Positions 1 through 20,445 of a stretch of DNA of 32,000 nt are shown in pieces. The stretch is from Cupriavidus necator (GTDB lineage Bacteria; Pseudomonadota; Gammaproteobacteria; Burkholderiales; Burkholderiaceae): contig NZ_CP066019.1 in NCBI RefSeq assembly GCF_016127575.1, positions 1,380,001 to 1,412,000 of the forward strand, given 5' to 3'. The notes beneath the pieces were generated by a model. The model was not told where the DNA came from. It was given only the letters and a program-made list of their open reading frames with translations, and ran no database searches. The position numbers were made by a program, and so were the translations under genes. Position 1 is the stretch's first letter, and each line of letters opens with the position of its first letter.

Positions 1-299
1 CGCAGAAGCTTGGCCTCAACGTCAACGTCTTTATCCACGTGTCGCTGGAGCGGCAGGCGCGCGAGGGGCTGGATGCCTTCGAACGCGCCGTGCGCGCGCT
101 GCCCAACGTGATGGAGTGCTACCTGATGACGGGCGATGCCGACTACCTGATCCGCGCCGTGGTGGCCGACGTGCAGGCCGTGGAGCGGCTGATCGTCGAC
201 GAGATCACGCGCATCCCCGGCGTCGCCAACATCCGCAGCAGCTTCGCACTCAAGCAGGTGATGTACGACACAGCCTTGCCGCTGCGCAATCCGCGCTAG
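1..299 (+). CDS. Lrp/AsnC family transcriptional regulator, C-terminal part (5' end outside the window; reading frame starts at nt 3)
   Basis: The frame is open from the window edge ([18 protein letters not shown]...). The AsnC-type ligand-binding (RAM) domain pattern [22 protein letters not shown]...IRSSFALK is present. Stop codon at 297-299. Confidence 0.85.
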
Positions 300-8803: not shown

Positions 8804-9130
8804 CAGATGACAACCCGGGGCGGGGCGAAGGCGGGGGGGATGCTCGCTTCGCGATCAGATCGCGCACAGGACAACCGATCTTGGGCTAACGACGCTAGAG
8901 CCAACGCCAGGACGGATCGGGATTGGCACCTGCACTTTACTCAACTTTCTCAGGATTCTCAAGTTTCTCGCAGGGACCTTGCGCCGGTCGATCTGCCGCA
9001 TCGTCATGGTAATGGCTCCTGCTGGCATGACGGGCTCCCGCGCGCTGGAAGCCGTCAAGCTTACGCCTGCCAAACTCGGACATTTGAACTTAGCCAGAAC
9101 CGGACATTACCGCTTAGCCGCTACATTCTA

Positions 9131-9158
9131 TGCGCGCATAATAAGTGTTATGTCAAAT
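9131..9158 (+). other. dif-like XerC/XerD recombination site (left junction of the element)
   Basis: The site is TGCGCGCATAA-TAAGTG-TTATGTCAAAT, compared with E. coli dif GGTGCGCATAA-TGTATA-TTATGTTAAAT. The XerC arm matches 9/11 and the XerD arm 10/11. It is intergenic. Confidence 0.7.
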
Positions 9159-9241
9159 CCCATCCGTAGCTCTGCAACCCAATACTGGCGCGGCTCTCCG
9201 GGCACCTAAGCACCGATTTCCAAGCGCGTCGACAATTTATC

Positions 9242-9274
9242 CCCCACGTGTCACCCGGCACCGTGGGGTTTTTT
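9242..9274 (+). terminator. rho-independent terminator-like hairpin
   Basis: CCCCACG(tg tcacccggca c)CGTGGGG is followed by TTTTTT (9269-9274). It lies just upstream of the ATG at 9290. Confidence 0.5.
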
Positions 9275-9289: not shown

Positions 9290-9634
9290 ATGCCACAACA
9301 ACAATACGCAATCCCCTCCGAATTCGCCCATTGGGCGCGCAGCATCCCTCCCGAATATCTCGCCCGCTATCTGCGGGTCACCCCTGCCACCGCGCGCGCC
9401 TGGCAGTCAGGCAAGCGCCCGGCGCCCTGGTGGACCGTGCACGTGCTTCGGCTCGATAAGCTTGAGCGCGACGAGATGGCCCGCCAGATGGGCTATGCCC
9501 ACCTCCTGCCGAAGCTGGGGATTGTCAGCGGCGACGTGATCCAGCTCCGGCCACGACGCGCGCAGCCGAAACCGGCGCCGGTCGGGCCGGCCAGTGTCAC
9601 GCCGCTGCCGGAACCCGGCCAGATGCAAGCCTAG
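9290..9634 (+). CDS. small phage regulatory protein, DUF3653/XafT-like candidate (114 aa)
   Basis: The internal ATG at 9290 follows the terminator. The segment YLRVTPATARAWQSGKRPAPWWTVHVLRL resembles the DUF3653 phage-protein pattern as I remember it. It lies 130 nt from the dif-like site. Confidence 0.6.
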   Translation: MPQQQYAIPSEFAHWARSIPPEYLARYLRVTPATARAWQSGKRPAPWWTVHVLRLDKLERDEMARQMGYAHLLPKLGIVSGDVIQLRPRRAQPKPAPVGPASVTPLPEPGQMQA

Positions 9635-9993
9635 TCCTTGCCGATGGACGTGTTTTTGTAGAAGTTGTTGGGCAGGCCGGTGAATGACTCCATCGAATAC
9701 TTATCACCATCTGCCGGCCTGTCCTGACTCACGTAGCATCCCGTGAACATCTGCACGCACGGCTGGCCCGATATGTCGCGCTTTTCCTCTGCCTGCTGCG
9801 ATTGCCCCATGGTCATGGACAGCGCCATGTGAGCCGCTGTCCCAGCGCCGGAAACCATATCGCCGTACGGGTTCTTCTTCAGCATTTCCGCGGTGCCCCG
9901 CGCCACCTGTTGCATCTGGTCCTCGGTGCCGACATAGCGAAGCCCACAGCCCGCCAGCGCCAGCATCATCACTCCCGTCAACATCGTTCGCAT
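9631..9993 (-). CDS. lipoprotein, 120 aa (prophage cargo candidate)
   Basis: Lipobox MRTMLTGVMMLALAGC. SD GGGAGGGG is upstream. It lies downstream of the late-operon terminator, so it is a separate transcription unit. Confidence 0.75.
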   Translation of the reverse strand: MRTMLTGVMMLALAGCGLRYVGTEDQMQQVARGTAEMLKKNPYGDMVSGAGTAAHMALSMTMGQSQQAEEKRDISGQPCVQMFTGCYVSQDRPADGDKYSMESFTGLPNNFYKNTSIGKD

Positions 9994-10025
9994 AACCCCT
10001 CCCGTTGTTTTCCGGCAGTGTAACG

Positions 10026-10050
10026 AAAAAAACCCGGCCTAAAGCCGGGC
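10026..10050 (-). terminator. rho-independent terminator ending the long minus-strand operon
   Basis: On the minus strand it reads GCCCGGC-TTTAG-GCCGGG followed by TTTTTTT. Confidence 0.8.
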
Positions 10051-10076
10051 AATCCCCTGTGCAGCGCGATACCTGG

Positions 10077-10148
10077 TTAGCGCTTCTTGCGCTTCCGGAA
10101 CTGGCCGTTGGCCTTGCGCGGCGGCGTACGTCGTTTCTTGGTTGCCAT
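10077..10148 (-). CDS. 23-aa polybasic peptide MATKKRRTPPRKANGQFRKRKKR
   Basis: Found by hand because it is below the ORF-track cutoff. A strong SD (AGGAG) lies 5 nt upstream of the ATG. It is the last ORF before the terminator. Confidence 0.45.
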   Translation of the reverse strand: MATKKRRTPPRKANGQFRKRKKR

Positions 10149-10162
10149 GCTCTCTCCTGTTG

Positions 10163-10339
10163 TCACCACAAAACGCGGCCCTGCTGGTCCTTCAGCGTGA
10201 CCGTCCCTTGATCAGCGATCCACGTCTTGAGCCCCGGAAAGCGCGACAGGATGACGGCGGCGCAGATGACGCCGCCGATCACAATCAGCGTTTCCCGGCC
10301 GATCTCAGCCGGCGTGGGTATCCAGCCGCGGCCGCTCAT
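10163..10339 (-). CDS. 58-aa single-TM protein (holin-like candidate)
   Basis: Hand-translated as MSGRGWIPTPAEIGRETLIVIGGVICAAVILSRFPGLKTWIADQGTVTLKDQQGRVLW. It has an ATGA overlap with the upstream ORF. GC3 is high. Confidence 0.5.
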   Translation of the reverse strand: MSGRGWIPTPAEIGRETLIVIGGVICAAVILSRFPGLKTWIADQGTVTLKDQQGRVLW

Positions 10340-10494
10340 CGGTGCCCCTCGATGTGACGGTCGATGCGTTCATGCGCCCTCCCGATGTCCTTGCGCATGT
10401 TGCGCAGATCGGCACGGATGCCACCGTAGGCGGCCCCGGCCCCCATCAGCACCGTGACCAGGTACTTGAGCGCATCGACCGTCAGCGCGTCCAT
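10336..10494 (-). CDS. 52-aa small protein (N-terminal hydrophobic segment, charged C-terminus)
   Basis: Hand-translated as MDALTVDALKYLVTVLMGAGAAYGGIRADLRNMRKDIGRAHERIDRHIEGHR. There is a TAATG junction with the upstream ORF. Confidence 0.5.
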   Translation of the reverse strand: MDALTVDALKYLVTVLMGAGAAYGGIRADLRNMRKDIGRAHERIDRHIEGHR

Positions 10495-10661
10495 TACTCG
10501 GCCTGGCCCTTTTCCGGCAGGAACACTGCCAGCGCCGACAGCACGGCGGCGACCACCGCGGACACGGCATTGACCTTGGTCGGATTGGCGCCGACGATCA
10601 CCGCCAGACCGGACAGGCCGGCCATGGTGGACGGCTCGCGCAAACGTTGCAGAAATTTCAT
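10494..10661 (-). CDS. 55-aa small membrane protein
   Basis: The internal ATG at 10661 forms an ATGA overlap with the upstream stop. The sequence MKFLQRLREPSTMAGLSGLAVIVGANPTKVNAVSAVVAAVLSALAVF is hydrophobic. Confidence 0.6.
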   Translation of the reverse strand: MKFLQRLREPSTMAGLSGLAVIVGANPTKVNAVSAVVAAVLSALAVFLPEKGQAE

Positions 10662-11077
10662 TGTGCTTTCCTCACTCGCGGGTACACAAAGGCCGCACCG
10701 CCCGCGTTCTCGGTGACAGTCCACGCATTGGCAGGCCGCGCGGCAAACGTGCCGGCGTAGCCGTCCATCGAATAATCCGGCGTGCGGTCGCTGCCCACCA
10801 GCGAACTGATGAACGTGCCAGCCGGGCAGGCAAACGACGCATCCCAGGTGCGGCCCTCGGCAAGCGCGCGTTCGCACTCGGTCATGTCCGTGCGGGGCAC
10901 GCCCAGCACGTCACCGATACCCAGCACCGCCCCGCTGGCCGCATCCCCCACCGCCCCCACCAGGGCGCTCGCTGCACCCGCAGCCACACCCTGAATCCCG
11001 CCGTTTTTTTTTACGACATAGGCGATCGCCGCGATGGCGGCGCCGGCGAGCAACAGCTTGGCGGTCGTGTCTTTCAT
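10658..11077 (-). CDS. 139-aa N-terminally anchored membrane protein (virion membrane protein candidate)
   Basis: The ATG at 11077 is adjacent to the upstream stop (11079-11081). TM segment MKDTTAKLLLAGAAIAAIAYVV. A Gly/Ala-rich linker follows. Confidence 0.65.
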   Translation of the reverse strand: MKDTTAKLLLAGAAIAAIAYVVKKNGGIQGVAAGAASALVGAVGDAASGAVLGIGDVLGVPRTDMTECERALAEGRTWDASFACPAGTFISSLVGSDRTPDYSMDGYAGTFAARPANAWTVTENAGGAAFVYPRVRKAQ

Positions 11078-11078
11078 G

Positions 11079-11537
11079 TCAGCCGCCCGTGGCCCAGCCC
11101 AGGTAGTTGCCCAGGCTCGGGCTCTCCACCTGCGAGCCGAACGTGTAGGCACCGTTCATGCTGCCAAACTGGCCCGGCGTCCAGCCATCCGTGGCGTCAA
11201 TGCCGAGCTGGCCGATGTAGCCGTTCTGCGCGTTGTATTCCAGCGCGTTGGACAGCCCGCCGCCGAACACGCCCGTGACCGGCGCGCCGCTGATCACGGC
11301 ATCCGGCGAGCCCGAACGGAACGCGCCGATGATGCTCGACACCAGCCCCGCGCCTGCGGAGGCGTAGGCAATATTCCGCTGCGCGCTGTAGTCAGGCCGC
11401 AGCTGCGCCGCGGTGCCCATCGGCACGCCTGTGGCCGCCGTCGCGGCGCGCGATCGCAGCGCGAGGAACGCCATCGCGCCCACCGCTGCAATCAGAAGCA
11501 AATCCGGGCCTCCGCCCCCTGCCGCTGCCTTAGCCAT
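11079..11537 (-). CDS. 152-aa membrane protein (virion membrane protein candidate)
   Basis: N-terminal TM segment PDLLLIAAVGAMAFLAL. The protein is Gly/Ala/Ser-rich. It overlaps the upstream gene by 8 nt. Confidence 0.65.
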   Translation of the reverse strand: MAKAAAGGGGPDLLLIAAVGAMAFLALRSRAATAATGVPMGTAAQLRPDYSAQRNIAYASAGAGLVSSIIGAFRSGSPDAVISGAPVTGVFGGGLSNALEYNAQNGYIGQLGIDATDGWTPGQFGSMNGAYTFGSQVESPSLGNYLGWATGG

Positions 11538-12165
11538 TCACTACACCCCCTGCCGCTTGATATGCGGCCTGCAATCGTTCCAGCGCCACTTCCGGCTGGC
11601 CGTACCCGGCGCCGGGCATGGACGCCCAAATCTTGCGCACCTTGCGCACCGCCAGCGCGAAGCGGCCCGCGTCCACGTCACCCAGGGCGCCCGCTTCGCG
11701 GATCAGTTCCAGCGCCGCCGCGTCCTGGCTGGCCGGCGAGAAGTCCGTCAGGCCCAGCCGGGCGGCCAGCGTGTCCCACGTGCGGCGCAGGAACTGGTAG
11801 GCGCCTGCCGCGCTGCTGCTGATCGGCTTGCCGTTCGACAGGGCGGTCACCACCTGGCGCGGATGATCCGCGAAGGAATCGAACTTCCCGCCGCCGAACA
11901 GCATGCGGTATCCGTCATTGCCTGCGGTGCCCTCCCCGGTGCGAATCGTCAGCAGGAAGGCGGCGCGATTCAGTTGTGCTTGCCCCATGTCGGTGTCCTC
12001 AGTGCCGCCGAAGAAGTTGCCTTCGGTGGCGTCGTAAAACAGGTTTTCGGCCTGGTCGATGAAGTCCGGCGACTGCGCGCCCGGCTCTTCGCTGCGCTGC
12101 CAGTCGCGCCACACCACGTAGCCCACGGCGGCCAAGGCCAGCAGCGCGAACTCGTAGCGCGTCAT
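11530..12165 (-). CDS. membrane-anchored lytic transglycosylase, phage lambda R / GH104 type, 211 aa
   Basis: AAGAYQFLRRTWD...LGLTDFSPASQDAAALELIREAGAL...IWASMPGAGYGQPE parallels lambda R (AAGRYQLL..WWD...LGLKDFSPKSQDAVALQQIKERGAL...IWASLPGAGYGQ). There is an extra N-terminal TM segment (FALLALAAVGYVVW). Confidence 0.88.
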   Translation of the reverse strand: MTRYEFALLALAAVGYVVWRDWQRSEEPGAQSPDFIDQAENLFYDATEGNFFGGTEDTDMGQAQLNRAAFLLTIRTGEGTAGNDGYRMLFGGGKFDSFADHPRQVVTALSNGKPISSSAAGAYQFLRRTWDTLAARLGLTDFSPASQDAAALELIREAGALGDVDAGRFALAVRKVRKIWASMPGAGYGQPEVALERLQAAYQAAGGVVNG

Positions 12166-12935
12166 CAGATCGCTTCCTCGAAGAACTCCGCCGTGACTGT
12201 CAGATTGGTGTTATTTGCCGTGCCAAACCACATTACGCCCTGCCCTGGCTCCAGCGTAATTGGCTCCTGAAACACCTTCTGCGCGATCACGTTCGCGGCC
12301 AGATTGGACGTAAATATCGAATTGAGACCCCCCTCCCCGCTTGGGCTTGTAGTCGTGTCTTCGCGGCCCTGCGCGACACTCGCCGCGCCCCACTTCTTTG
12401 GCACAATGCACGCCGCGTTCGCGCTTCCAATCGCGCTGTTCTTCCACGTCATGCCAAAGGCTTGTGCGGTCTGGCTCGATACGTCTGCCGTCTTCACTAC
12501 CAGCCGCTTGCCGCTGCCGACTGGGTTCCACAGTTGCGGCGTCGGCCTGTGCGTCGCGTCACCGATAGTATTGAAGGACGCCAGAAACGCGGCGCCGCCC
12601 AGCGTGCGGGCCTTGCCGCCGTCGATCACATCGACGGTGCCGGCAATGCGCTGGTCGAAGAAGTCCCCCGATCCAATCATCAGGTATCCGGTCAGCGCTA
12701 CGCTTCCCCGGTTGAACACTACCCAGCGCGTTACCTGCTCGCTGAATCGGAAGCCCTGCCCCGGCTTCAGGCTGATATTGCCCTGCGCGAAGTTGGGCCG
12801 AATCTCGATCTGCGCGAACGGGTCTGCCGCCGACAGGAACTGCACGCGGTCCCCGGCCACGTCGATGGCCTGGGCACCACCCGCAGGGATGTTCAGGTCG
12901 TACTGCTGTACGGATTCAATGATGCCCACGGTCAC
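12165..12935 (-). CDS. putative vertex/spike (receptor-binding) protein, 256 aa
   Basis: It is a soluble, beta-rich protein placed between membrane-protein genes and the lysozyme. It has a GTG start in a GTGA overlap (the alternative GTG at 12929 has better SD spacing). The functional call rests on position and composition only. Confidence 0.4.
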   Translation of the reverse strand: MTVGIIESVQQYDLNIPAGGAQAIDVAGDRVQFLSAADPFAQIEIRPNFAQGNISLKPGQGFRFSEQVTRWVVFNRGSVALTGYLMIGSGDFFDQRIAGTVDVIDGGKARTLGGAAFLASFNTIGDATHRPTPQLWNPVGSGKRLVVKTADVSSQTAQAFGMTWKNSAIGSANAACIVPKKWGAASVAQGREDTTTSPSGEGGLNSIFTSNLAANVIAQKVFQEPITLEPGQGVMWFGTANNTNLTVTAEFFEEAI

Positions 12936-13459
12936 CCCTTCATTTTCGATACGGCCACGATGCCCGCGATCGCGAGCGCGCCGGCCACAAGGAATTTCTG
13001 ACCGGTGCCAATCTCCTGCACGTTGTCATAGGCTTTCGCCACGTTCTGTGTGGCCGTTTCGTTCACCGCCCTGGCGGTGCTGGCCGTGTCCTTGGCGAAA
13101 TCGATCAGCTTGCCCATGCCGGCCAGCAGGCCGTCAGCGTTGATCCTGGACTGATCCAGATTCAGCTTGAGGCCGTCTCGCGCCATCCCTACCGCGTCGG
13201 CAGTGGACTTGTAGGTGGTTTCGCTGTTCGTCTTGGCGAAATCGAACGCCGCCGCAATGGAGCCGGCATCGGTGTAGCTGAGGTTGGCCGATACCTGGTT
13301 TCCGTCGCCCGACACCGAGATGCCGCCATCGTTGACGGTGCGGCGATCCACGTTGTTCGTGGTTGCCGCCGTGCTGCTGGCGTTGCTGCTGGACCGGTTG
13401 CAAGGCGTGGCCGGCAGGCCCAGCGCCAGCTGCTTAACTTGCCACGGCTTGAGAATCAT
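12932..13459 (-). CDS. 175-aa protein with C-terminal TM anchor (virion membrane protein candidate)
   Basis: SD GGGGA upstream of the ATG at 13459. The C-terminus is FLVAGALAIAGIVAVSKMKG. Confidence 0.65.
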   Translation of the reverse strand: MILKPWQVKQLALGLPATPCNRSSSNASSTAATTNNVDRRTVNDGGISVSGDGNQVSANLSYTDAGSIAAAFDFAKTNSETTYKSTADAVGMARDGLKLNLDQSRINADGLLAGMGKLIDFAKDTASTARAVNETATQNVAKAYDNVQEIGTGQKFLVAGALAIAGIVAVSKMKG

Positions 13460-13865
13460 GGTTTCCCCGCTTGCGCAGCGTCACGGCCTCTACGCCGTAG
13501 CCGATGCGCTTCAGTTTCTTGATGAGGCCGGGCCGGCACGTCTCGATGCGGATCGCATCGAACGCCGCGCACTGCCGCTCGATCAGCGGCAGCACCCCGG
13601 CCACAATGTCAAAGTCCGCGCCGCCATAGGCCAGCGCAATCTCGGCCTCGGTGCCGTGCGCGTACTGGTGTCCGCGCAGCACATACCAGGCCACCGGCTC
13701 GCCGTCCCGATAGACCCGGCAGAAGGTGCCGCCCGCCACGCACTCAGCCGGCGCCATCAGGCCCCGGCTGGTGTCGCTCTTGGCGTGCGCGCCGAACGCG
13801 CTGTCAACCTCGGCCAGCAGTGCCGGCGTCCAGGCTTCCGGTTCGATCCTGATGACGGTTTCCAT
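13434..13865 (-). CDS. 143-aa soluble protein, possible GNAT-like fold
   Basis: GC3 is high. The junction with the upstream gene is a TGATG overlap. The segment AEIALAYGGADFDIVAGVLPLIERQC...IRIETCRPGLIKKLKRIGY is arranged like the GNAT beta4-alpha3...alpha4 region. The fold call is weak. Confidence 0.6.
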   Translation of the reverse strand: METVIRIEPEAWTPALLAEVDSAFGAHAKSDTSRGLMAPAECVAGGTFCRVYRDGEPVAWYVLRGHQYAHGTEAEIALAYGGADFDIVAGVLPLIERQCAAFDAIRIETCRPGLIKKLKRIGYGVEAVTLRKRGNHDSQAVAS

Positions 13866-14191
13866 CAGCCGCGCCGTGCGAAGGCGATGGCGACCGCCGC
13901 AGCAGCCAGCAGCACCATTGGGTTATTTAACAGCGACAGCGCGTTATCCGCCGTCGCCTGCACAGCGCTGGTCAGCGTCGGCAAGGCGCGCGCCTCACTG
14001 CCTCCGGTGGCTACCGTCCAGCCTGAGCCGTCGAAATGCTGGTCAAACATGCCCCCGCCCGACACTGCCGCCTTATTGCCATCCGGGCCACCCAGCGTAC
14101 TGGTCAGCACCTGCGACGCGCCCATGATGGCGGCGGTGTACGGGTTCGAGTACATGGCGGCAGATGCCGCCCCGCCCATGGCCGGAGTCAT
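13865..14191 (-). CDS. 108-aa protein with C-terminal TM anchor
   Basis: There are 1-nt start/stop overlaps on both sides. The C-terminus is MVLLAAAAVAIAFARRG. Confidence 0.65.
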   Translation of the reverse strand: MTPAMGGAASAAMYSNPYTAAIMGASQVLTSTLGGPDGNKAAVSGGGMFDQHFDGSGWTVATGGSEARALPTLTSAVQATADNALSLLNNPMVLLAAAAVAIAFARRG

Positions 14192-14511
14192 CAGGGCTTC
14201 CCGGCCAGCAGGTAGATGACGGCGCCCGCCACCAGCAGCGGCATCAGGCCACCACCGAACAGCGCAGCCGCCGGCGTGGAGCCGCGCGGCGCCGTGGTCA
14301 GCACCGCACCGCCCGGCGTGATGACCGCCGCCGTGTTGGTGTTCTGCAGCGCCCGCACGGTCTGCACGTCGATCAGACGCGACAGCCCGTACTTGAGCAG
14401 GTCCGCCCCGCTCTGCGCCAGCGGGTTCAGGTCGCTGGCGTCAGGCGCCGCACTCACCATCGGATCGGTGTAGTACGACTGGGGCTGAATGCTGTCGGTC
14501 CAATCACCCAT
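14191..14511 (-). CDS. 106-aa protein with C-terminal TM anchor
   Basis: SD GGGGG upstream. The C-terminus is LMPLLVAGAVIYLLAGKP. Confidence 0.65.
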   Translation of the reverse strand: MGDWTDSIQPQSYYTDPMVSAAPDASDLNPLAQSGADLLKYGLSRLIDVQTVRALQNTNTAAVITPGGAVLTTAPRGSTPAAALFGGGLMPLLVAGAVIYLLAGKP

Positions 14512-14520
14512 GACGCCCCC

Positions 14521-15345
14521 TTACAGGTTGAACGGCAGGTCGATGCACTCGACGTAGACGTCGATGCCGTCCGCAGCGGTCAGGAACGCATTGAACTCCA
14601 GCGCCGCCGCATCGGCGGTCTTGAGGGCGCCCGACTGATTGTTGTCGAAAATGAAGTCCACGCAGTAGTGCTTGGGCTGCGGCACCTTGCGCTGTTCCTG
14701 CTCGATGAAGCGCGCCACGCGGCTGGTCGCGTCCCATACCACCAGGCCGTTTTTCTTGACCTCGACGCGGTTCAGGTTGCCGTCCGTGGTCGACGTCCAG
14801 TCCGTGCCGGTGTAGATCATGTGGATACGCTTCAGGAGCGCACCCTTGGCCGAGAAGTTGATGGGGAACTTGCCCGCCACGCTGGTGGAGGCCGGGAAAT
14901 ACAGCAGCTTGTGGATCAGCTCGCCCGCGCCCTGGCCTTGCGGCGGCGTGAGGAACATGTAGCCGGTCAGCGTCGGCGCGGTGGCGCCCGCGATGGTGAT
15001 TTCCAGATTCATGTTATCCGGCCACGCGGTCAGGTCGAAGCCGCCCACTTCCTTGCCGTCGATGCTCGGCGCGTCGCGCTCGGTAAAGTCGATGGTCAGG
15101 AAGTTGGCATCGTCGTAGATGCCCTTGTACTTGTTGATCAGGTCCAGCGCGGAGCCCTTCACGTTGTACACCGTGCGGGCGCCGATCTTGACCTTGATGT
15201 CGGTGATCATCGCCTTCGTGAGCGCGGTGCCGCCCAGGGCGAGCACAATGCGGGTCAGCGTGTTGGAGTAGCGCGGGATCTGCAGCGTGGCGACGCCGCT
15301 GTTGACCACGTTCAGGAACGGGGGCAGTTGTTGGAGGATTGCCAT
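14521..15345 (-). CDS. major capsid protein candidate, PM2 P2-like (small double jelly-roll), 274 aa
   Basis: The size is close to PM2 P2 (269 aa). Both halves match my recollection of P2. The N-terminus FLNVVNSGVATLQIPRYSNTLTRIVLALGGT...ITDIKVKIGARTVY...LTIDF resembles FLNLNSIPNVAAGNSCSIKLPIGQTYEVIDLRYSGVT...VRVELDGRLL. The C-terminal half VEVKKNG...YCVDFIF...DVYVECIDLP resembles VEFQIDG...YTIDFML...EIIVEYMG. It sits between the ATPase and membrane-protein genes. Confidence 0.6.
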   Translation of the reverse strand: MAILQQLPPFLNVVNSGVATLQIPRYSNTLTRIVLALGGTALTKAMITDIKVKIGARTVYNVKGSALDLINKYKGIYDDANFLTIDFTERDAPSIDGKEVGGFDLTAWPDNMNLEITIAGATAPTLTGYMFLTPPQGQGAGELIHKLLYFPASTSVAGKFPINFSAKGALLKRIHMIYTGTDWTSTTDGNLNRVEVKKNGLVVWDATSRVARFIEQEQRKVPQPKHYCVDFIFDNNQSGALKTADAAALEFNAFLTAADGIDVYVECIDLPFNL

Positions 15346-15360
15346 TTCTCGGTGTCCTTT

Positions 15361-15474
15361 TCAGCCGGCCAGTGCGGTGGCGACGATTTGGTTTGCCACC
15401 GGCACGCGGCGGGCGACGTAGATCACGGCCAGCACCAGCGCCGTGGTCTTGATTGCGTTCTTGATCTCGCTCAT
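15361..15474 (-). CDS. 37-aa single-TM protein
   Basis: The internal ATG at 15474 lies 4 nt after the upstream stop. Sequence: MSEIKNAIKTTALVLAVIYVARRVPVANQIVATALAG. Confidence 0.5.
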   Translation of the reverse strand: MSEIKNAIKTTALVLAVIYVARRVPVANQIVATALAG

Positions 15475-15478
15475 GGCG

Positions 15479-15589
15479 TTAGCCCAGCAGCTTGGCGACG
15501 GAATCGGGCAGGAACTTCTTGCCCTGATTGATGATGACCAGCGCAATGGCGGTCATCGCCACGGCCTTGCCAATGTCCTTCACGCTCAT
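15479..15589 (-). CDS. 36-aa single-TM protein
   Basis: Hand-translated as MSVKDIGKAVAMTAIALVIINQGKKFLPDSVAKLLG. SD GGGAGA upstream. It is below the ORF-track cutoff. Confidence 0.55.
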   Translation of the reverse strand: MSVKDIGKAVAMTAIALVIINQGKKFLPDSVAKLLG

Positions 15590-15688
15590 GGTTTTCTCCC
15601 CGAAAGTGCGTGTCTGCAATGTCGGGGCTAGCCCCCGCTTGAGCCTTCACTATGGGCAACCCAAGCGGGGCAGCGCAAGGGGCGCCCG

Positions 15689-16402
15689 TTACGTTACGTT
15701 GGGCGCGGGTTCGGCCAACGTACGTACGTTACGTACGGGTTTTGGGGTGTTGCTCCCCAGCGACGGCAGCACGCCGGAGACGGTTTTCCCGGTCTGCATG
15801 TCGCGCTCGATGAAGTCAAAGCGGCCCGCGTCCTTGTCGGCCACCATGGCCCGCACCTGGTCCTGCGAGACCGCCAGATACCGACTCATGGTGCGGACGT
15901 CGTTCTCGTCGTTCAGGCGGCTGCAATGGATCATCGTGCAGTTGCCCAGGAACGTCTTGTCGATCAGCGCCGGGCGCTGCGTGACCCCGAAAATGGTCAG
16001 CGCCTCATGCCGGCCCTGGCGCGACAGCACCGACCACGAATCCGGCGTCTCGGCCGGGCTCGGTCCGGTCACGTCCGCCAGCTCTTCCACCACCAGGCAC
16101 AGGTTCCCCGCGGCGAACACCAGCTCGCACAGCGTGTCGAACTTGTCCGGGTAGGTCTTCTTGCGCTTGCCGGGCCGGTAGACGATCCGGAAAGGCCCAT
16201 CGCTGCCAGCCGTGACCACGGCCTCGACCACCTCGCGCAGGTCGGTCATGACCTCGCCCTGGTCGTATTCGCCCAGCGGATCCCAGATCAGCAGGCGCGG
16301 CGGGTTGCCCCGATCCAGTACGCTCTTGAGCCATCGGCTCTTGCCGCTTCCCGACGCCCCTACGACGCCAATGATTCGTGCGGTGTTATGGCTTCCCGCC
16401 AT
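15689..16402 (-). CDS. P-loop ATPase, FtsK/HerA-type genome-packaging ATPase candidate (PM2 P9 / PRD1 P9 class), 237 aa
   Basis: Walker A is IGVVGASGSGKS and Walker B is LCLVVEELADV. It is small, has no terminase nuclease domain, and lies immediately upstream of the capsid module. Confidence 0.7.
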   Translation of the reverse strand: MAGSHNTARIIGVVGASGSGKSRWLKSVLDRGNPPRLLIWDPLGEYDQGEVMTDLREVVEAVVTAGSDGPFRIVYRPGKRKKTYPDKFDTLCELVFAAGNLCLVVEELADVTGPSPAETPDSWSVLSRQGRHEALTIFGVTQRPALIDKTFLGNCTMIHCSRLNDENDVRTMSRYLAVSQDQVRAMVADKDAGRFDFIERDMQTGKTVSGVLPSLGSNTPKPVRNVRTLAEPAPNVT

Positions 16403-16403
16403 G

Positions 16404-16886
16404 TCATCCCCTTACGGCAGGCAAGCGCCCGCCCGTGTCTTCCATGTTCTCGCCCAGGTGCGACCGCGACTGCGGCGGCACCACCTCAGCGGGCGGCGCG
16501 TTGTCCACCGTACGTTCGGCGTCCTGCTGTTCGCGCCATGCCTGGTGCGCCACGTACGTGGACAGCGCCAGCGGCCCCGCCACCAGCAGCAGGCCGATTT
16601 CCGGCCCGGACATGAGCCCGCCCACGTTGAGGCCGTACTTGTCGGCCACCGGCACGATGGCGGCGGCCAGCGCCTTGATGGTGTCCTTCGTGTAGATGCT
16701 GGGCAGGTACGGCAAGGCCGGCGACAGCACCGTGACCAGCAGCGTGAGGGACATTTCCCACTCGACGGCGGGATCAACCGGCTCCGGCTCGCCCGGCAGC
16801 AGCGGCAGGCCCTCGGGCTCGACCGATTCCGCCGCGTGCGCCTTGCGCCGGAGCATGTCCATGGTATTGGCGTCGATCACCCCCAT
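16404..16886 (-). CDS. 160-aa membrane protein
   Basis: Two hydrophobic segments (LTLLVTVLSPALPYL and GPEIGLLLVAGPLALSTYVA). It overlaps the upstream gene by 10 nt. Confidence 0.65.
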   Translation of the reverse strand: MGVIDANTMDMLRRKAHAAESVEPEGLPLLPGEPEPVDPAVEWEMSLTLLVTVLSPALPYLPSIYTKDTIKALAAAIVPVADKYGLNVGGLMSGPEIGLLLVAGPLALSTYVAHQAWREQQDAERTVDNAPPAEVVPPQSRSHLGENMEDTGGRLPAVRG

Positions 16887-17134
16887 ACGGATAGCTCCCC
16901 TTGTTCCAGGGCGCCCGGCCCCGGCGTGGCGGGCATGGTTTCCGTAACGTTACGTACGTACGGGACGCCATCGCCCAGGATGAAGCGTTCGCGGATGCGT
17001 TCGTCGGCCTCGTCAGAGCGCGCGAAGAGCTGGATCCCGCAACCGGGCGCGGTGCAGTTGATGCACACCCGCCCGTTTTTCATGGGAGACCAGCGCGCGC
17101 CCTGGCCGCACACCGGGCAGGTGCATTGGGTCAT
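16877..17134 (-). CDS. zinc-ribbon protein, 85 aa (candidate transcription factor)
   Basis: The Cys pattern is CTCPVCG...(14 aa)...CINCTAPGCG. It is compact, and its position precedes the structural genes. Confidence 0.65.
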   Translation of the reverse strand: MTQCTCPVCGQGARWSPMKNGRVCINCTAPGCGIQLFARSDEADERIRERFILGDGVPYVRNVTETMPATPGPGALEQGELSVWG

Positions 17135-17137
17135 GGC

Positions 17138-17416
17138 TTAGGCCCCCTGCCCTGCCAGCAGCGCGGCGTTGAGGATGCCGGCAACCATGTCGGCGGCGGT
17201 GGTGTTGGCCGGCATGTTGGCCAACGCGGTTACGCCAGCGGCCTGCATGGCCTCGGTGGGCGCGGTCGGCGGCGAGAGCTGGGCGTCAGCCATGCCCAGG
17301 ACCATTTCGGCCTGGTGGTGGGCGGCGCCGTACGCCGTATCGCCAGTGTCGCGCACATGGGGCTTGAGGCTCTCCACGGCGGCCAGCAGCGCCTGCATTT
17401 CGGTCAGGATGGTCAT
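17138..17416 (-). CDS. hypothetical phage protein, 92 aa
   Basis: GC3 is high, and it has tight junctions with its neighbours. Confidence 0.6.
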   Translation of the reverse strand: MTILTEMQALLAAVESLKPHVRDTGDTAYGAAHHQAEMVLGMADAQLSPPTAPTEAMQAAGVTALANMPANTTAADMVAGILNAALLAGQGA

Positions 17417-17547
17417 TGCTTTTGCTCCCTCAGTTCATCCAGCGCCACGGCCATGTCCCGCAGCAGTTCCTTGACGGGGCGCGGCAGCACGCTCCCGAAA
17501 ACCAGCAGCGCCGCATCGGCGCGATCCTTGAAAGACCTCTCTTCCAC
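17413..17547 (-). CDS. hypothetical 44-aa protein (GTG start)
   Basis: Hand-translated as (M)EERSFKDRADAALLVFGSVLPRPVKELLRDMAVALDELREQKQ. SD GAGGGG lies 7 nt upstream. It has an ATGA overlap with the next gene. Confidence 0.4.
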   Translation of the reverse strand: MEERSFKDRADAALLVFGSVLPRPVKELLRDMAVALDELREQKQ

Positions 17548-17616
17548 TTCGTTTCCCCTCTACGTTGGCGCCTTTCGGCGCGAAATCCGTTTCCGTTACG
17601 CGTAACGAAAACCCAT

Positions 17617-18087
17617 TCAGTCCTTGTGCATCGGGAACGGCCACTCGCTCTCCGCATATCGCGACGCCGGCGACCCCAATTCCGTTACGGGTTTCGTCGT
17701 AACGGAATTGGCGAGCCCGCTGCGCGCGGCTTCGAGCTCGCCACGCAGTGATGCAATCACGGTGCCGGAGTCGATGGCGTTCTGCCGCCAGCGGCGCAGC
17801 GCGATCAGCTCGTCGTTGAGCTCGTCGATGGTTTCGTGCGCTTCGGCCAGCTCGGCCCGCACGGCGGCCAGCTCTTCCGCGAGCTCGTCCGCGTCGCCCT
17901 GGTGCATCAGGTCGGGCACGCCCGGCGCGGCGTACGTGGAAATGCCGTCCGCCTTGAGGCGCGCGCGGTATTTGGCCTGGCGCTCGGCATTGGTCATCGC
18001 GCCGGGCTTGCGCGGTCGCCCAGGCCGGCGCTTCGTTTCGACCTCGGGCAACAGCTCGCCCGTCACGTTGTCGGCGGCATCACGCAT
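17617..18087 (-). CDS. coiled-coil protein with a basic AT-hook-like segment, 156 aa
   Basis: The internal ATG at 18087 overlaps the initiator stop by 8 nt. It has the segment KRRPGRPRKPG followed by heptad-like AEELAAVRAELAEAHETIDELNDELIALRR. Confidence 0.6.
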   Translation of the reverse strand: MRDAADNVTGELLPEVETKRRPGRPRKPGAMTNAERQAKYRARLKADGISTYAAPGVPDLMHQGDADELAEELAAVRAELAEAHETIDELNDELIALRRWRQNAIDSGTVIASLRGELEAARSGLANSVTTKPVTELGSPASRYAESEWPFPMHKD

Positions 18088-19150
18088 GGCGTACCCCTTT
18101 CTGCGCTCTTGGCTTGACCAGGTCAGCGAGCCGGCCGGGCGGCTTGCCCGCGCGGCCCGCCGCGACCTCGGCGGCAAAGGCCGCTTCCCGCGCCGCGGCT
18201 TCGGCGGCGGCAGCCCTTGCGCCCTCGCGCTGGGCCCGGATGCGCTCGGCGTGTTCGGGCAGCCAGTCATCGCCCTGCGCCTTGTCGACCAGGCTGGCGA
18301 GGAACTTGAACGGGGAACGGATGCCTCCGGCCTCGATAGCGCCCCGCCATTCGTCTAAAACCGCTTGGGATAGGTCAGGGCCTATGGGCGACAGTTTTTT
18401 TGCAATGTCGGCCCTTCTGGCCTGCGCGATGCCGATCGGCCAGTGCAACCGATCCTCCCAGGCGAGGCCGCCCCCCTCTTTTGCAAGCCGGCGCGCAGCG
18501 CCCTCCCCCACCGCATCGGCCGGCCCGTGGCGTTCCTCTGAGGGCGCGAAGCCTTCGGGTTCGTGTGGGTGTTGGGGGTCCAGCTCGCCCTCCCGCGCCG
18601 AAGGCGTGGGGGGCTGTTGATACTCCCCCCGGCGGCGAAGCCGTTGGGGGGTAGGGGGGGAAGGGTTTAAGGTGTTACCGGTATCCGGATGTGTGTCGGC
18701 TTTCGCGTTTTCGGGTCTGTCGGCTTCTCTGTCGGCTTCTTCCCTGAAACCCGCGCCGTTATTGCCTTCTGAGGTGTCGGCTTGTCTGTCGGATTGACCT
18801 GTCGGCTTACTGTCGGCTTTTTTTCGGACGTTTTTATCCGTGTCGGCGAGCGGACAGAAAAAAACGAGCTGCTTGTCACGCGACCCGATGCGCACCAGGC
18901 CGTGTTTAACGAGCTGCAGCGCCATGCGGCGGATCGCCTCGATGCTGGGGATGGTGGCCTTCACGCCCGGCCTGGGCTCGATGTAGAGCCATTCCTTGAG
19001 CGCCTGCCAGGAGATACGCGGGGCCAGTCCTACGGCCCCGGTGCGGAAGTCCATGCGCGGACGAATCGCCATCACGTACATGCAGATGGCGGCGTAGTCC
19101 ATGCCGGACAGGGCCGACAATTCGGCCTCATTGAGTTTGAGCGCGGGCAT
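18080..19150 (-). CDS. replication initiator candidate (lambda O-like organisation: N-terminal winged-helix, repeat-encoded linker, C-terminal domain), 356 aa
   Basis: The N-terminal roughly 100 aa look wHTH-like (ISWQALKEWL...IRRMALQLVKHGLVRI). The central low-complexity part is encoded by an iteron array. There is no HUH/RCR motif. Confidence 0.55.
   Translation of the reverse strand: MPALKLNEAELSALSGMDYAAICMYVMAIRPRMDFRTGAVGLAPRISWQALKEWLYIEPRPGVKATIPSIEAIRRMALQLVKHGLVRIGSRDKQLVFFCPLADTDKNVRKKADSKPTGQSDRQADTSEGNNGAGFREEADREADRPENAKADTHPDTGNTLNPSPPTPQRLRRRGEYQQPPTPSAREGELDPQHPHEPEGFAPSEERHGPADAVGEGAARRLAKEGGGLAWEDRLHWPIGIAQARRADIAKKLSPIGPDLSQAVLDEWRGAIEAGGIRSPFKFLASLVDKAQGDDWLPEHAERIRAQREGARAAAAEAAAREAAFAAEVAAGRAGKPPGRLADLVKPRAQKGVRHA
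18694..18849. repeat. iteron array: 8 copies of TGTCGG(C/A)(T/G)(T/A) followed by A/T-rich tracts; candidate ori inside the initiator gene
   Basis: Copies start at 18694, 18718, 18730, 18775, 18787, 18800, 18811 and 18841. The tracts T7 (18818-18824), TTTTTA (18831-18836) and A7 (18858-18864) are adjacent. Confidence 0.65.
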
Positions 19151-19156
19151 TGATGG

Positions 19157-19249
19157 TCACAGCACCCAATGCACAATCGCGAAGACCACCATCACCAGCA
19201 CCATCAGCGCCCAGGCGATCACACCCGCGTCTGCTTTCTCTCGCGCCAT
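19157..19249 (-). CDS. 30-aa single-TM peptide
   Basis: Hand-translated as MAREKADAGVIAWALMVLVMVVFAIVHWVL. The ATG lies 2 nt after the upstream stop. Confidence 0.35.
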   Translation of the reverse strand: MAREKADAGVIAWALMVLVMVVFAIVHWVL

Positions 19250-19250
19250 G

Positions 19251-19571
19251 TCAGCAGCCCTCCGCCTTGTTGATGGCATTGCCGACCAGCACCAGCGCCT
19301 TGCCTACCTTCGGATCATCGGCGTGGCGGGCCAGCGCGACATACGCTGCATTGAGCGCCTCCAGCAGTTCCGGCGCGGTGGCCATCAGGCGCGCATTGGC
19401 TTCTGCCTCCGTTCCAGGACTTGCGCAGTACACCACTCCCACTTCCATCAGGAAGCGGTCGCCCCGCTGGCTCTCGGGATAGATATGGCAAATCGACTCA
19501 GCGCTCTTAACGTTCTGGTGGTTCCACGTTGCGAACCACGGACCCGGCGTATGGGAATTTTGTAACGACAT
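19251..19571 (-). CDS. Ead/Ea22-like early phage protein, 106 aa
   Basis: The motif GPW...EANARLMATAPELLEAL is common in the C-termini of small early phage proteins. SD GAGGGG upstream. Confidence 0.6.
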   Translation of the reverse strand: MSLQNSHTPGPWFATWNHQNVKSAESICHIYPESQRGDRFLMEVGVVYCASPGTEAEANARLMATAPELLEALNAAYVALARHADDPKVGKALVLVGNAINKAEGC

Positions 19572-19819: not shown

Positions 19820-20146
19820 ATGAAAACTACTCTTGAATACGTCGACGCGGTCAAGATCAGGCTTGACCTGCCGTCTGATTATGCGATTGCCAAGTCCCTC
19901 GGCGTGTCGCGTCAGGCCGTCAGCCAGTACCGCCAGGGCAAGGCTGCTTTTGATGACCTTACCGCCGTGCGCGTGGCGGAAATCCTTGGTCTGAATCCGA
20001 TGGAAGTGATCGCCGCTGCCAACCGTGAGCGGGCGAAAAGCGAGGATGCGCGGCGCGTGTGGACCGGCCTTTTCGACCGTTTCGCCGCAAATTTTGAGAC
20101 GCTCTGCGAGCACCTCCGGATAGCCCAGACCCCGCGTCTGGCCTAG
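19820..20146 (+). CDS. CI/Cro-type HTH repressor, 108 aa
   Basis: The HTH is YAIAKSLGVSRQAVSQYRQGK. SD AAAGGGG lies upstream of ATG 19820. It is divergent from the early operon. Confidence 0.8.
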   Translation: MKTTLEYVDAVKIRLDLPSDYAIAKSLGVSRQAVSQYRQGKAAFDDLTAVRVAEILGLNPMEVIAAANRERAKSEDARRVWTGLFDRFAANFETLCEHLRIAQTPRLA

Positions 20147-20161
20147 CCCGCAGAGCTTTTT
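20101..20161 (+). terminator. nested hairpins plus T-tract at the 3' end of the repressor gene
   Basis: The inner hairpin is CCAGAC-cccgc-GTCTGG (20125-20141). The outer pairing is GCTCTGCG (20101-20108) with CGCAGAGC (20149-20156), followed by TTTTT. The geometry is non-canonical. Confidence 0.35.
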
Positions 20162-20189
20162 CCGGATGGGACTAAGTGTTATGTTAAAT
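20162..20189 (+). other. dif-like site with a degenerate XerC-side arm (right junction of the element)
   Basis: The site is CCGGATGGGAC-TAAGTG-TTATGTTAAAT. The XerD arm matches E. coli dif 11/11. The central hexamer is identical to the left site. The XerC-position arm matches only 2/11. Confidence 0.65.
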
Positions 20190-20378: not shown

Positions 20379-20406
20379 TTGTATAACGTGCGAGAATCCC
20401 TATAAG
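20379..20406 (+). promoter_or_regulatory. sigma70-like promoter candidate upstream of the exonuclease gene
   Basis: It reads TTGTAT-16 nt-TATAAG. Confidence 0.4.
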
Positions 20407-20445
20407 CATGATTCCTGTAGACGTCCGGTGGGCTCCGATTCGAAG

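What the first reader, a model, noticed from the sequence alone, without database searches (positions are those of the whole stretch)
9290..9634. Small DUF3653/XafT-like protein encoded next to the dif-like site
In the satellite phage TLC-phi of Vibrio cholerae, the HTH + DUF3653 protein XafT activates XerD catalysis so that integration is independent of FtsK. As I recall, XafT-like genes were reported in IMEXs of gamma- and beta-proteobacteria. This 114-aa protein (…YLRVTPATARAWQSGKRPAPWWTVHVLRL…) looks like that family. It is the first gene inside the left junction, which fits a Xer activation factor for this element.
Basis: inference. Interest (0 to 1): 0.65.

Follow-up and report, generated by a model that had tools for sequence, protein, structure and literature searches.

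The report
Xaf-slot HTH gene beside prophage dif
This small gene is real and sits exactly where dif-integrating phages keep their Xer recombination helper, but it lacks the DUF3653 domain and instead belongs to an undescribed helix-turn-helix family always found beside dif-like sites in tailless and filamentous phages of Burkholderiales.

Summary
The 114-aa ORF (9290-9634, +) is real. It is the first gene, 131 nt inside the left junction (dif-like site 9131-9158), of an 11-kb PM2-like (corticovirus) prophage that encodes no recombinase and is integrated at dif. An empty dif site in Cupriavidus neocaledonicus confirms the insertion.

The DUF3653/XafT assignment fails. There is no Pfam PF12375 hit and no NCBIfam VC1465-family hit, whereas PM2 P15 and VGJ XafV do hit DUF3653. 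The residues invariant in my alignment of P15/XafV relatives (W, F, P) are not conserved.

Only the N-terminal helix-turn-helix domain resembles the P15/XafV relatives of XafT (hhalign about 94%).

The protein belongs to an unnamed family of about 500 members. In 91 of 96 instances a dif-like site lies upstream of the gene (median 114 nt). The hosts are PM2-like prophages and inoviruses, including Ralstonia phage p12J. The module order is P16/RstR-like repressor, attP, terminator-like hairpin, this gene.

This phage's attP has an XerD arm and central region but no XerC arm, the mirror image of TLC. Other clades are TLC-like.

My best reading is an attP-proximal factor that assists Xer integration, analogous to XafT. 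This is inferred, not shown.

The parts
9131..9158 (+). attL. A full dif-like site: host XerC arm TGCGCGCATAA, central region TAAGTG, phage-derived XerD arm TTATGTCAAAT. Probably the working dif after integration.
   Evidence: The empty site in C. neocaledonicus has TTATGTTAAAT instead.
9158..9175 (+). Right half of the inverted repeat that brackets the phage attP core (TCCCATCCG, then AGCTCTGC).
   Evidence: The reconstructed attP folds with z -6.0 (DNA parameters) and -4.9 (RNA parameters).
9242..9274 (+). Terminator-like hairpin (9242-9268) followed by a T-run (9269-9274), 15 nt before the start codon.
   Evidence: A hairpin plus U/T-run was found by my own script in 73 of 96 family instances. 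The simple consensus scanner did not report it; its limit is a 3-8 nt loop, and my own stem search gives a 13-nt loop here, though the fold closes this hairpin on a 4-nt loop with a bulged stem.
9290..9634 (+). The 114-aa ORF. XRE-type helix-turn-helix domain (helices 9-16, 21-28, 32-40), a long helix 47-66, a conserved RQMG...LG.V.G.VI motif, and a variable tail.
9631..19571 (-). Prophage body, PM2-like. Lipoprotein-like ORF, small membrane proteins, endolysin 11530-12165, major capsid protein 14521-15345, packaging ATPase 15689-16402, AT-hook protein 17617-18270, 356-aa putative replication protein 18080-19150. No recombinase.
   Evidence: PMC1950889.
14521..15345 (-). Double jelly-roll major capsid protein of the PM2 P2 type.
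   Evidence: Pfam P2_N E 1.1e-39 and P2_C E 5.1e-42.
19820..20146 (+). P16/RstR-like repressor (HTH_3 with a weak DUF3693 hit). Terminal gene at the right end; in the free phage genome it lies directly upstream of attP and the ORF.
   Evidence: phrog_4441 E 3e-29, the same PHROG as PM2 P16. Pfam. Gene order seen in free genomes L014, L008 and p12J.
20150..20171 (+). Left half of the attP-bracketing inverted repeat (GCAGAGCT, then CGGATGGGA). It occupies the place where an XerC arm would be.
20162..20189 (+). attR. Phage sequence with no XerC arm (CCGGATGGGAC, 2 of 11 matches by eye), central region TAAGTG, host XerD arm TTATGTTAAAT.

Best explanation
The ORF encodes a small DNA-binding protein. 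It has an XRE-type helix-turn-helix domain, a long helix and a conserved C-terminal motif. It is the attP-proximal terminal gene of the lysogeny module of a PM2-like tailless prophage that has no recombinase and entered the Cupriavidus dif site through the host XerC/XerD.

Shown: in the free phage genome the order is P16/RstR-like repressor, one-armed dif-like attP inside an inverted repeat, terminator-like hairpin, then this gene. This matches the order repressor, attP, XafV in VGJ and the P16/RstR, attP, P15/XafT module reported for Vibrio DJR prophages and CTX-I inoviruses. The protein shares its N-terminal HTH domain with relatives of XafT (PM2 P15, XafV), but the DUF3653 hairpin is not detectable.

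Inferred: the protein is the element's Xer accessory factor. It would act on the free circular genome to let XerCD synapse and recombine an attP that lacks one recombinase-binding arm (here the XerC arm) with the chromosomal dif. Because the central regions are identical, both pairs of strands can be exchanged. Integration then separates the gene from the upstream phage transcription unit. The hairpin plus T-run shields it from host read-through, so the factor stays off in the lysogen and the prophage is stable. It may also act as a transcription regulator, as PM2 P15 does.
For: Element and site:
- The capsid protein is of the PM2 P2 type (P2_N/P2_C, E about 1e-40).
- The ATPase is 32% identical to PM2 P9 (E 1e-21).
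- No recombinase was found in any ORF.
- TAAGTGTTATGT is repeated at both ends.
- The empty dif site TTTGCGCATAA-TAAGTG-TTATGTTAAAT in C. neocaledonicus has a left flank 93% identical to window 8975-9158. It follows that the phage attP is CCGGATGGGAC-TAAGTG-TTATGTCAAAT.
- A free relative, L014, has CCGTAACACTC-TGCGCTA-type sequence replaced by CCGTAACACTC-TGCGTA-TTATGTTAAAT between the P16-like gene and the family gene.

Linkage of the family to dif:
- Of 96 family instances, 70 have a full dif-like site upstream, 11 have only the XerC arm, 10 only the XerD arm, and 5 have none. The median distance is 114 nt.
- 66 of the 67 full dif-like sites in 920 kb lie within 380 nt upstream of a family gene.

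The module occurs in two unrelated virus groups:
- Among loci of 9 kb or more, 34 carry a PM2-type capsid gene, 5 carry Zot, and 2 carry both.
- Ralstonia inovirus p12J carries repressor, AGGTTTTCATAA-TGCAAA-TTATGCGAAAC, then the family gene.
- The P16-like gene is in the same PHROG as PM2 P16.

Similarity to XafT relatives:
- hhalign of the family against a set of XafV and P15 relatives gives 93.7-94.6% probability over ORF residues 12-54.
- An ungapped profile comparison of residues 12-46 gives z 8.8.

Precedent:
- XafT and XafV are both encoded immediately beside attP, and both are experimentally shown to be Xer activators (PMC6744903; bioRxiv 10.64898/2026.06.12.731946).
- XafT is detectable only from the non-integrated form (PMC9226527).
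- A hairpin plus U-run precedes the start codon in all 7 loci folded.
Against: There is no direct evidence of any contact with XerC or XerD, or of any effect on recombination.

The part of XafT thought to activate XerD is DUF3653, and it is not detectable here. At the register fixed by the HTH alignment, residues 57-90 give p 0.11 and residues 64-86 give p 0.043. The positions that are W, F and P in all 13 sequences of my P15/XafV alignment are Q, variable and V here.

Structure searches find only generic XRE-type regulators such as HigA2, Aca2 and C.Kpn2I, all with E>0.01.

PM2 P15 is a documented transcriptional repressor (PMC1950889). A DUF3653 protein next to attP in Xanthomonas phage, PSB15, is dispensable for integration (bioRxiv 10.1101/2024.03.19.585677). 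So position beside attP does not prove a Xer function.

One family would have to serve attP sites of opposite polarity: XerC arm missing in the Cupriavidus clade, XerD arm degenerate elsewhere.
Confidence: 0.45

Rival explanations
1. The protein is purely a transcription regulator, like Cro or PM2 P15. It would control the early or lysogeny promoters together with the P16-like repressor. Xer integration would need no phage factor, and the position beside attP would only reflect operon layout.
For: The only confidently modelled domain is an XRE-type HTH. The best structural neighbours are DNA-binding regulators, and the Pfam sub-threshold hits are all HTH families. PM2 P15 and P16 are described as transcriptional repressors (PMC1950889). 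CTX integrates through the basal activity of XerC. PSB15 shows that a gene beside attP need not serve integration.
Against: The attP lacks one recombinase-binding arm entirely, which in TLC requires a phage-encoded factor. The gene stays within about 50-220 nt of the dif-like site in 91 of 96 instances and travels with it between inoviruses and PM2-like phages. It is co-directional with the repressor and lies behind a terminator-like hairpin, unlike a classical divergent CI/Cro switch.
Confidence: 0.3
2. One reading: the protein is a true DUF3653/XafT-family member whose DUF3653 hairpin has diverged beyond what HMMs can detect, and it activates XerD as XafT does.
For: The ORF aligns without net gaps to XafV from the HTH onward. 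The landmarks keep the same spacing: W38-G68-Y69-L76-G81-D82 against XafV W50-G80-F81-L88-G93-D94 (my reading). The relaxed hhalign alignment picks the same register. Two of 30 relatives give weak VC1465-family hits, best E 0.0056. The core region 64-86 gives p 0.043.
Against: There is no Pfam or NCBIfam hit for the ORF. Cross-HMM matches fall almost entirely within P15 positions 14-63, upstream of the DUF3653 core at 62-97; a single weak one reaches position 81. The W, F and P positions invariant in my alignment are not conserved. AlphaFold2 predicts a helix followed by coil, not a beta-hairpin. This phage's attP keeps its XerD arm and lacks the XerC arm, so XerD activation of the TLC kind is not the obvious requirement.
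Confidence: 0.12
3. The protein binds the hairpin or inverted repeat around attP for a different purpose, such as packaging or assembly control (like PSB15), replication, or recombination directionality during excision.
For: The attP core is bracketed by an inverted repeat of variable sequence in 7 of 9 free or reconstructed attPs (z -3.2 to -6.4). Some relatives give weak HTH_17 (excisionase-type) hits. PSB15 sets a precedent.
Against: The inverted-repeat sequences differ completely between phages, while the recognition helix of the family is nearly invariant within clades. Double-stranded DNA PM2-like phages do not use inovirus packaging signals. No evidence supports any of these roles.
Confidence: 0.08

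Closest known systems
XafT (VC1465) of Vibrio cholerae satellite phage TLC
   Same: A small protein with an N-terminal HTH, encoded immediately beside a one-armed dif-like attP in an element without a recombinase, and next to the full dif after integration. XafT itself was not compared here; its relatives PM2 P15 and XafV show a related HTH domain (hhalign about 94%).
   Different: No DUF3653 is detectable by Pfam, by the NCBIfam VC1465 model or by conserved residues. The TLC attP lacks the XerD arm; this phage lacks the XerC arm. The host is a beta-proteobacterium and the element is a PM2-like phage. Function is untested.
XafV (ORF136) of Vibrio phage VGJ
   Same: The same local order: HTH_3/DUF3693-type repressor, attP, factor gene. 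The ungapped alignment of the HTH region is strong (z 8.8). XafV acts on reactions initiated by XerC, showing that such factors are not limited to XerD activation.
   Different: XafV still matches DUF3653 (20.3 bits, residues 73-109) and keeps W..F...L..P.G; this family does not. The VGJ attP has both arms.
PM2 P15/P16 and the P16/RstR - attP - P15/XafT module of Vibrio dif-type DJR prophages and CTX-I inoviruses (Commun Biol 2025, PMC12715192)
   Same: Tailless PM2-like prophages integrated at dif, with the repressor gene and the factor gene as the two terminal genes. The module is shared with filamentous phages. The P16 homologue is present (phrog_4441).
   Different: The P15/XafT slot is filled by another family. 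PM2 P15 is phrog_18872 with DUF3653, whereas this ORF gives only a weak phrog_10187 hit. The hosts are Burkholderiales, two attP polarities occur, and a conserved hairpin plus T-run precedes the gene.
Corticoviral element of Ralstonia eutropha (Cupriavidus necator) H16 (Krupovic and Bamford 2007, PMC1950889)
   Same: The same kind of prophage: PM2-type capsid and ATPase, a phage-type lysin, and an AT-hook protein related to one in phage p12J.
   Different: In the passages I read, that paper did not describe the dif junctions, the attP or this terminal gene.

Membership tests
DUF3653 (Pfam PF12375) | Significant match to the Pfam model | tested here: not met
   The ORF has no Pfam family at all, even at E<=10. 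None of 14 relatives match at E<=1. DUF3653 is not among the 25 commonest of the 74 families matched by 150 relatives. Controls: PM2 P15 scores 21.6 bits and XafV 20.3 bits against a cut-off of 22.4.
DUF3653 (Pfam PF12375) | Beta-hairpin core with conserved W-x-x-F ... L-x-x-P-x-G (LTG/WAGFxF/TPE in the Xanthomonas proteins) | tested here: not met
   At the register fixed by the HTH alignment, the W, F, P and G positions invariant in my P15/XafV alignment face Q66, a variable residue, V79 and G81. Scores: residues 57-90 p 0.11; residues 64-86 p 0.043. AlphaFold2 gives coil after residue 66. Motifs taken and from alignments A3 and the P15/XafV set.
VC1465 family Xer recombination activation factor (NCBIfam NF040522) | Match to the family model (cut-off 70 bits) | tested here: not met
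   No hit for the ORF at E<=1. Two of 30 relatives give weak hits, best E 0.0056. PM2 P15 gives E 1.9e-7 at 31 bits, itself below the cut-off.
XafT/XafV-type Xer activation factors (functional class) | N-terminal HTH domain of the type found in XafT relatives | tested here: met
   hhalign against the set of XafV and P15 relatives gives 93.7-94.6% probability and E 6.5e-8 to 1.8e-7 over ORF residues 12-54. The ungapped profile score is 25.1 against a best other offset of -19.6, z 8.8. XafT itself was not in the comparison set.
XafT/XafV-type Xer activation factors (functional class) | Gene immediately beside the element's dif-like attP, in an element without its own recombinase | tested here: met
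   The gene is 131 nt from attL. 91 of 96 family instances have a dif-like site upstream. No recombinase was found in the element.
XafT/XafV-type Xer activation factors (functional class) | Binds XerD or XerC and stimulates attP x dif recombination independently of FtsK | not testable with these tools
   No multimer prediction was available and XerC/XerD are not in the window. This needs pull-down and integration assays.
IMEX (integrative mobile element exploiting Xer) | Inserted at chromosomal dif, flanked by dif-like sites that share the central region, with an empty site in a relative | tested here: met
   attL at 9131-9158 and attR at 20162-20189. A single dif joins the left flank to downstream host DNA in C. 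neocaledonicus STM6070.
IMEX (integrative mobile element exploiting Xer) | Integration catalysed by host XerC/XerD | not testable with these tools
   Inferred from the dif junctions and the absence of a recombinase gene.
PM2-like (Corticoviridae-type) double jelly-roll phage | P2-type major capsid protein and P9-type packaging ATPase | tested here: met
   P2_N E 1.1e-39 and P2_C E 5.1e-42. The ATPase is 32% identical to PM2 P9, E 1e-21.
P16/RstR - attP - P15/XafT lysogeny module | P16/RstR-type repressor directly upstream of attP and the factor gene in the free genome | tested here: met
   phrog_4441 E 3e-29, the same PHROG as PM2 P16. The order is seen in L008, L013-L015, L021-L023, L079, L090 and p12J.
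P16/RstR - attP - P15/XafT lysogeny module | Factor gene orthologous to P15/XafT (DUF3653) | tested here: not met
   BLASTP against PM2 P15 finds no alignment. The PHROGs differ. Only the HTH segment aligns.

The most novel reading that the evidence does not exclude
This family would be a further class of phage-encoded Xer activation factor that keeps the HTH domain seen in XafT relatives but has replaced the DUF3653 effector. It would be used by both PM2-like and filamentous phages of Burkholderiales to integrate one-armed attP sites. That would include an attP with no XerC-binding arm, a mirror image of TLC that I have not seen described in the Xer papers I consulted.
Probability: 0.3. Interest if true: 0.8.

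Novelty: new variant of a known kind. Interest (0 to 1): 0.6.

Why it matters
Xer-exploiting elements carry toxins, defence systems and resistance genes, and how they bypass FtsK control is known only for a few Vibrio phages (XafT, XafV). Midonet et al. (2019) suggested that activation factors from a superfamily other than DUF3653 might exist.

This family is a concrete, abundant candidate: about 500 members, tightly linked to dif-like sites, in two unrelated virus groups of beta-proteobacteria. It comes with matched attP sites of both polarities, so the idea can be tested directly. The family is also a practical marker for finding the ends of small tailless and filamentous prophages that standard tools miss.

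If it proves to be only a regulator, the finding still corrects a plausible but wrong DUF3653 annotation. It also documents attP sites that lack an XerC arm.

Tried and rejected
- Pfam at E<=10 and NCBIfam on the ORF found nothing.
- PHROGs gave only a weak hit to phrog_10187, of unknown function (E 3.9e-4).
- BLASTP against PM2 P15 found no alignment.
- The first AlphaFold2 model, from 14 sequences, was poor (pLDDT 69), and its Foldseek search was uninformative.
- The better model found only generic XRE-type HTH folds in PDB and BFVD.
- PDB sequence searches with the family profile and the P15 profile found nothing relevant.
- Rfam found nothing across the element.
- The simple terminator scanner did not report the hairpin; folding showed it.
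- My first dif pattern was off by one base and found nothing; the corrected pattern worked.
- Supplementary sequences of the 2025 Vibrio paper were not held, so XafT itself was never compared directly. PM2 P15, XafV and the NCBIfam VC1465 model stood in for it.
- I considered that the inverted repeat around attP is the operator of this protein and rejected it, because the repeat sequences differ completely while the recognition helix is nearly invariant.
- I considered a CTX-like folded single-strand attP and rejected it, because the arm and central region would lie in the loop rather than in a duplex.

Full report
**Observation**

The ATG at 9290 is the likely start. The alternative GTG at 9248 lies inside a hairpin, and the close homologues begin at the ATG.

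It is a real gene:
- 13 close homologues, named ones all Cupriavidus, at 53-91% identity.
- 158 profile hits among 1.84 billion representative proteins.
- 513 hits in the larger collection.
- With a 150-sequence alignment, AlphaFold2 gives mean pLDDT 87.9, with helices at 9-16, 21-28, 32-40 and 47-66.

A complete dif-like site, TGCGCGCATAA-TAAGTG-TTATGTCAAAT, lies at 9131-9158, 131 nt upstream. None is expected by chance.

**What the element is**

A second site at 20162-20189 shares TAAGTGTTATGT with the first but has unrelated sequence where the XerC arm should be. The 11 kb between the two sites encodes:
- a PM2-type double jelly-roll capsid protein (Pfam P2_N and P2_C, E about 1e-40);
- a packaging ATPase 32% identical to PM2 P9;
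- an endolysin;
- an AT-hook protein and small membrane proteins.

No recombinase is present. This is the kind of corticoviral element Krupovic and Bamford described in Ralstonia eutropha H16 (PMC1950889).

Cupriavidus neocaledonicus STM6070 carries an uninterrupted site, TTTGCGCATAA-TAAGTG-TTATGTTAAAT. Its left flank is 93% identical to window 8975-9158, and its right flank maps to window position about 24243 onward. So attL is host XerC arm plus phage XerD arm, and attR is phage sequence plus host XerD arm. The phage attP is therefore CCGGATGGGAC-TAAGTG-TTATGTCAAAT. It has an XerD arm and a matching central region but no XerC arm.

A non-integrated relative confirms this. L014, an 11.5-kb viral contig, has CCGTAACACTC-TGCGTA-TTATGTTAAAT between its repressor gene and its copy of this gene.

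**Is the protein DUF3653/XafT?**

Direct tests are negative:
- The ORF matches no Pfam family, even at E<=10.
- It matches no NCBIfam model, including NF040522, the VC1465 family Xer recombination activation factor.
- DUF3653 does not appear among the 25 commonest of the 74 families matched by the 150 relatives, and is absent from all 14 close relatives at E<=1. What does appear is a set of sub-threshold HTH families.

The same tools do see DUF3653 in the positive controls. PM2 P15 scores 21.6 bits and also hits the VC1465 model at E 1.9e-7. The experimentally proven activator XafV of VGJ scores 20.3 bits.

Profile-profile comparison with the PM2 P15 family aligns only the HTH segment, ORF residues 20-48. 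Cross-HMM searches place nearly all matches within P15 positions 14-63; one weak match reaches position 81, and none covers the DUF3653 core at 62-97.

Against a more diverse set (XafV, three Vibrio relatives, nine P15-family proteins), hhalign gives 93.7-94.6% probability for ORF residues 12-54. I then fixed the register from the HTH alignment (ORF residue i against XafV residue i+12) and scored ungapped profile columns:
- The N-terminal domain scores far above every other offset (25.1 against -19.6; z 8.8; 0 of 5000 permutations reach it).
- The region where DUF3653 should lie is not significant (residues 57-90, p 0.11; residues 64-86, p 0.043).
- The positions that are W, F and P in every sequence of the set are Q66, variable and V79 in this family.

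There is an intriguing coincidence of spacing (G68-Y69, L76, G81-D82 against XafV G80-F81, L88, G93-D94), but it does not reach significance.

Conclusion: the N-terminal HTH domain resembles that of the P15/XafV relatives of XafT. DUF3653, the part proposed to activate XerD, is not demonstrably present.

**Genomic context of the family**

I collected loci from genomes, viral contigs and metagenomes.

Of 96 gene instances with enough upstream sequence:
- 70 have a full dif-like site upstream;
- 11 have only an XerC arm;
- 10 have only an XerD arm;
- 5 have none.

The median distance is 114 nt. Of the 67 full dif-like sites in 920 kb, 66 lie within 380 nt upstream of a family gene.

Among loci of 9 kb or more, 34 carry a PM2-type capsid gene, 5 carry the inovirus Zot gene, 2 carry both and 7 are undetermined. 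The isolated Ralstonia inovirus p12J has an unannotated family member that spans the ends of its record. It is preceded by AGGTTTTCATAA-TGCAAA-TTATGCGAAAC and an HTH_3 repressor gene.

Wherever one arm is degenerate, which marks the free attP form, a P16-like repressor gene lies 115-250 nt upstream on the same strand. The window's right-end gene, 19820-20146, falls in the same PHROG as PM2 P16 (E 3e-29). VGJ has the same order: orf154 (HTH_3 plus DUF3693), attP, orf136/XafV.

This is the Burkholderiales counterpart of the P16/RstR - attP - P15/XafT module reported for Vibrio (PMC12715192), with a different protein in the factor slot.

**Two attP polarities**

In the Cupriavidus clade (the window, L002, L003, L012-L016) the XerD arm is next to the gene, and the XerC arm is missing in the free form. 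In all other clades the XerC arm is next to the gene and the XerD arm is degenerate, as in TLC. In both cases the gene ends up beside the complete dif after integration.

**Other conserved features**

A GC-rich hairpin followed by a U/T-run lies 8-25 nt before the start codon in all seven loci I folded, with different sequences in each. My own script finds one in 73 of 96 instances.

The attP core is also bracketed by an inverted repeat of variable sequence in 7 of 9 free or reconstructed attPs (z -3.2 to -6.4). After integration its two halves lie at opposite ends of the prophage (20150-20171 and 9158-9175). I have no explanation for this repeat.

**Mechanism**

Shown:
- The element is an IMEX without a recombinase.
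- The attP is one-armed.
- The gene is the attP-proximal member of a conserved module shared by two virus groups.
- Its HTH domain resembles that of the P15/XafV relatives of XafT.

Inferred: the protein helps XerCD use the one-armed attP, as XafT does for TLC (PMC6744903, PMC9226527) and XafV does for VGJ (bioRxiv 10.64898/2026.06.12.731946). It would be silenced after integration, because it is cut off from the upstream phage transcription unit and shielded by the hairpin. This parallels the report that XafT is detected only from the replicative form.

Against this reading:
- There is no interaction evidence.
- The presumed effector domain is not conserved.
- PM2 P15 is a repressor.
- The DUF3653 protein PSB15 of Xanthomonas phage is not needed for integration.

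I put the accessory-factor reading at about 0.45, a purely regulatory role at about 0.3, and a cryptic true DUF3653 at about 0.12.

**Novelty and verdict**

PM2-like prophages in Cupriavidus (2007) and the repressor-attP-XafT module (2019-2026) are known. What appears new:
- the protein family in the factor slot;
- its very tight linkage to dif-like sites in beta-proteobacterial tailless and filamentous phages;
- the attP that lacks an XerC arm;
- the hairpins.

I rate it a new variant of a known kind, interest 0.6.

Noticed in passing
window 9242-9274; also L002, L003, L005, L006, L008, p12J: A GC-rich hairpin followed by a run of 5-8 T lies only 8-25 nt upstream of the start codon of the family gene. 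The hairpin sequences differ between clades. This leaves no room for a promoter between hairpin and gene, so expression seems to need read-through.
   Followed up: partly
window 20150-20171 and 9158-9175 (reconstructed attP); L008 712-760, L014 about 7370-7425, L021, L023, L079, p12J: The dif-like attP core sits in the loop of an inverted repeat whose sequence differs completely between phages (z -3.2 to -6.4 in 7 of 9). After integration the two halves become terminal inverted repeats of the prophage. Its function is unknown.
   Followed up: partly
L005, L006, L008, L017, L019, L023-L091 compared with window, L002, L003, L012-L016: The dif-like site has opposite orientation relative to the gene in different clades. 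In Cupriavidus phages the XerD arm is next to the gene and the XerC arm is missing from attP. In Oxalobacteraceae and other phages, and in p12J, the XerC arm is next to the gene and the XerD arm is degenerate.
   Followed up: partly
L011 (Ralstonia phage p12J, NC_005131) about 6861-7118 joined to 1-40, minus strand: The p12J record has an unannotated family member that spans the ends of the linearised record. It is preceded by an unannotated HTH_3 repressor-like ORF and a dif-like attP. The deposited annotation shows only ORF9 on the other strand there.
   Followed up: partly
window 20190-about 22000 (and up to about 23900): About 3.6 kb lies between attR and the APH-family gene that is absent from the corresponding interval in C. 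neocaledonicus. The first 1.8 kb is low in GC (0.53-0.58 against about 0.65) and holds two ORFs with no Pfam match (20302-20964, 21004-21498). It could be a decayed island next to dif. No further dif-like site was found.
   Followed up: no
window 8855-9073 (-) compared with L010 about 2300-2460: The short ORF that begins MTMRQIDR just left of dif matches the start of a longer gene in C. neocaledonicus. The similarity stops at window 8975, so the gene appears truncated or replaced here.
   Followed up: no
window 17617-18270 (-): An AT-hook protein (GRPRKPG) shares a 47-aa stretch, 68% identical, with ORF8 of inovirus p12J. This is a second gene, besides the lysogeny module, shared between the PM2-like prophage and a filamentous phage, as noted in 2007.
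   Followed up: partly
L018 and L019, L016, L020: Family genes also mark junctions inside tandem arrays of inovirus and PM2-like prophages at dif. L018 keeps an intact internal attP (degenerate XerD arm, TATAAA, TTATACGAATT) between the repressor gene and the family gene.
   Followed up: partly
alignment A4 members: Six of 30 family members give weak hits (best E 2e-5) to NCBIfam NF046037, 'carph-isopro domain-containing protein'. I did not look into this model.
   Followed up: no
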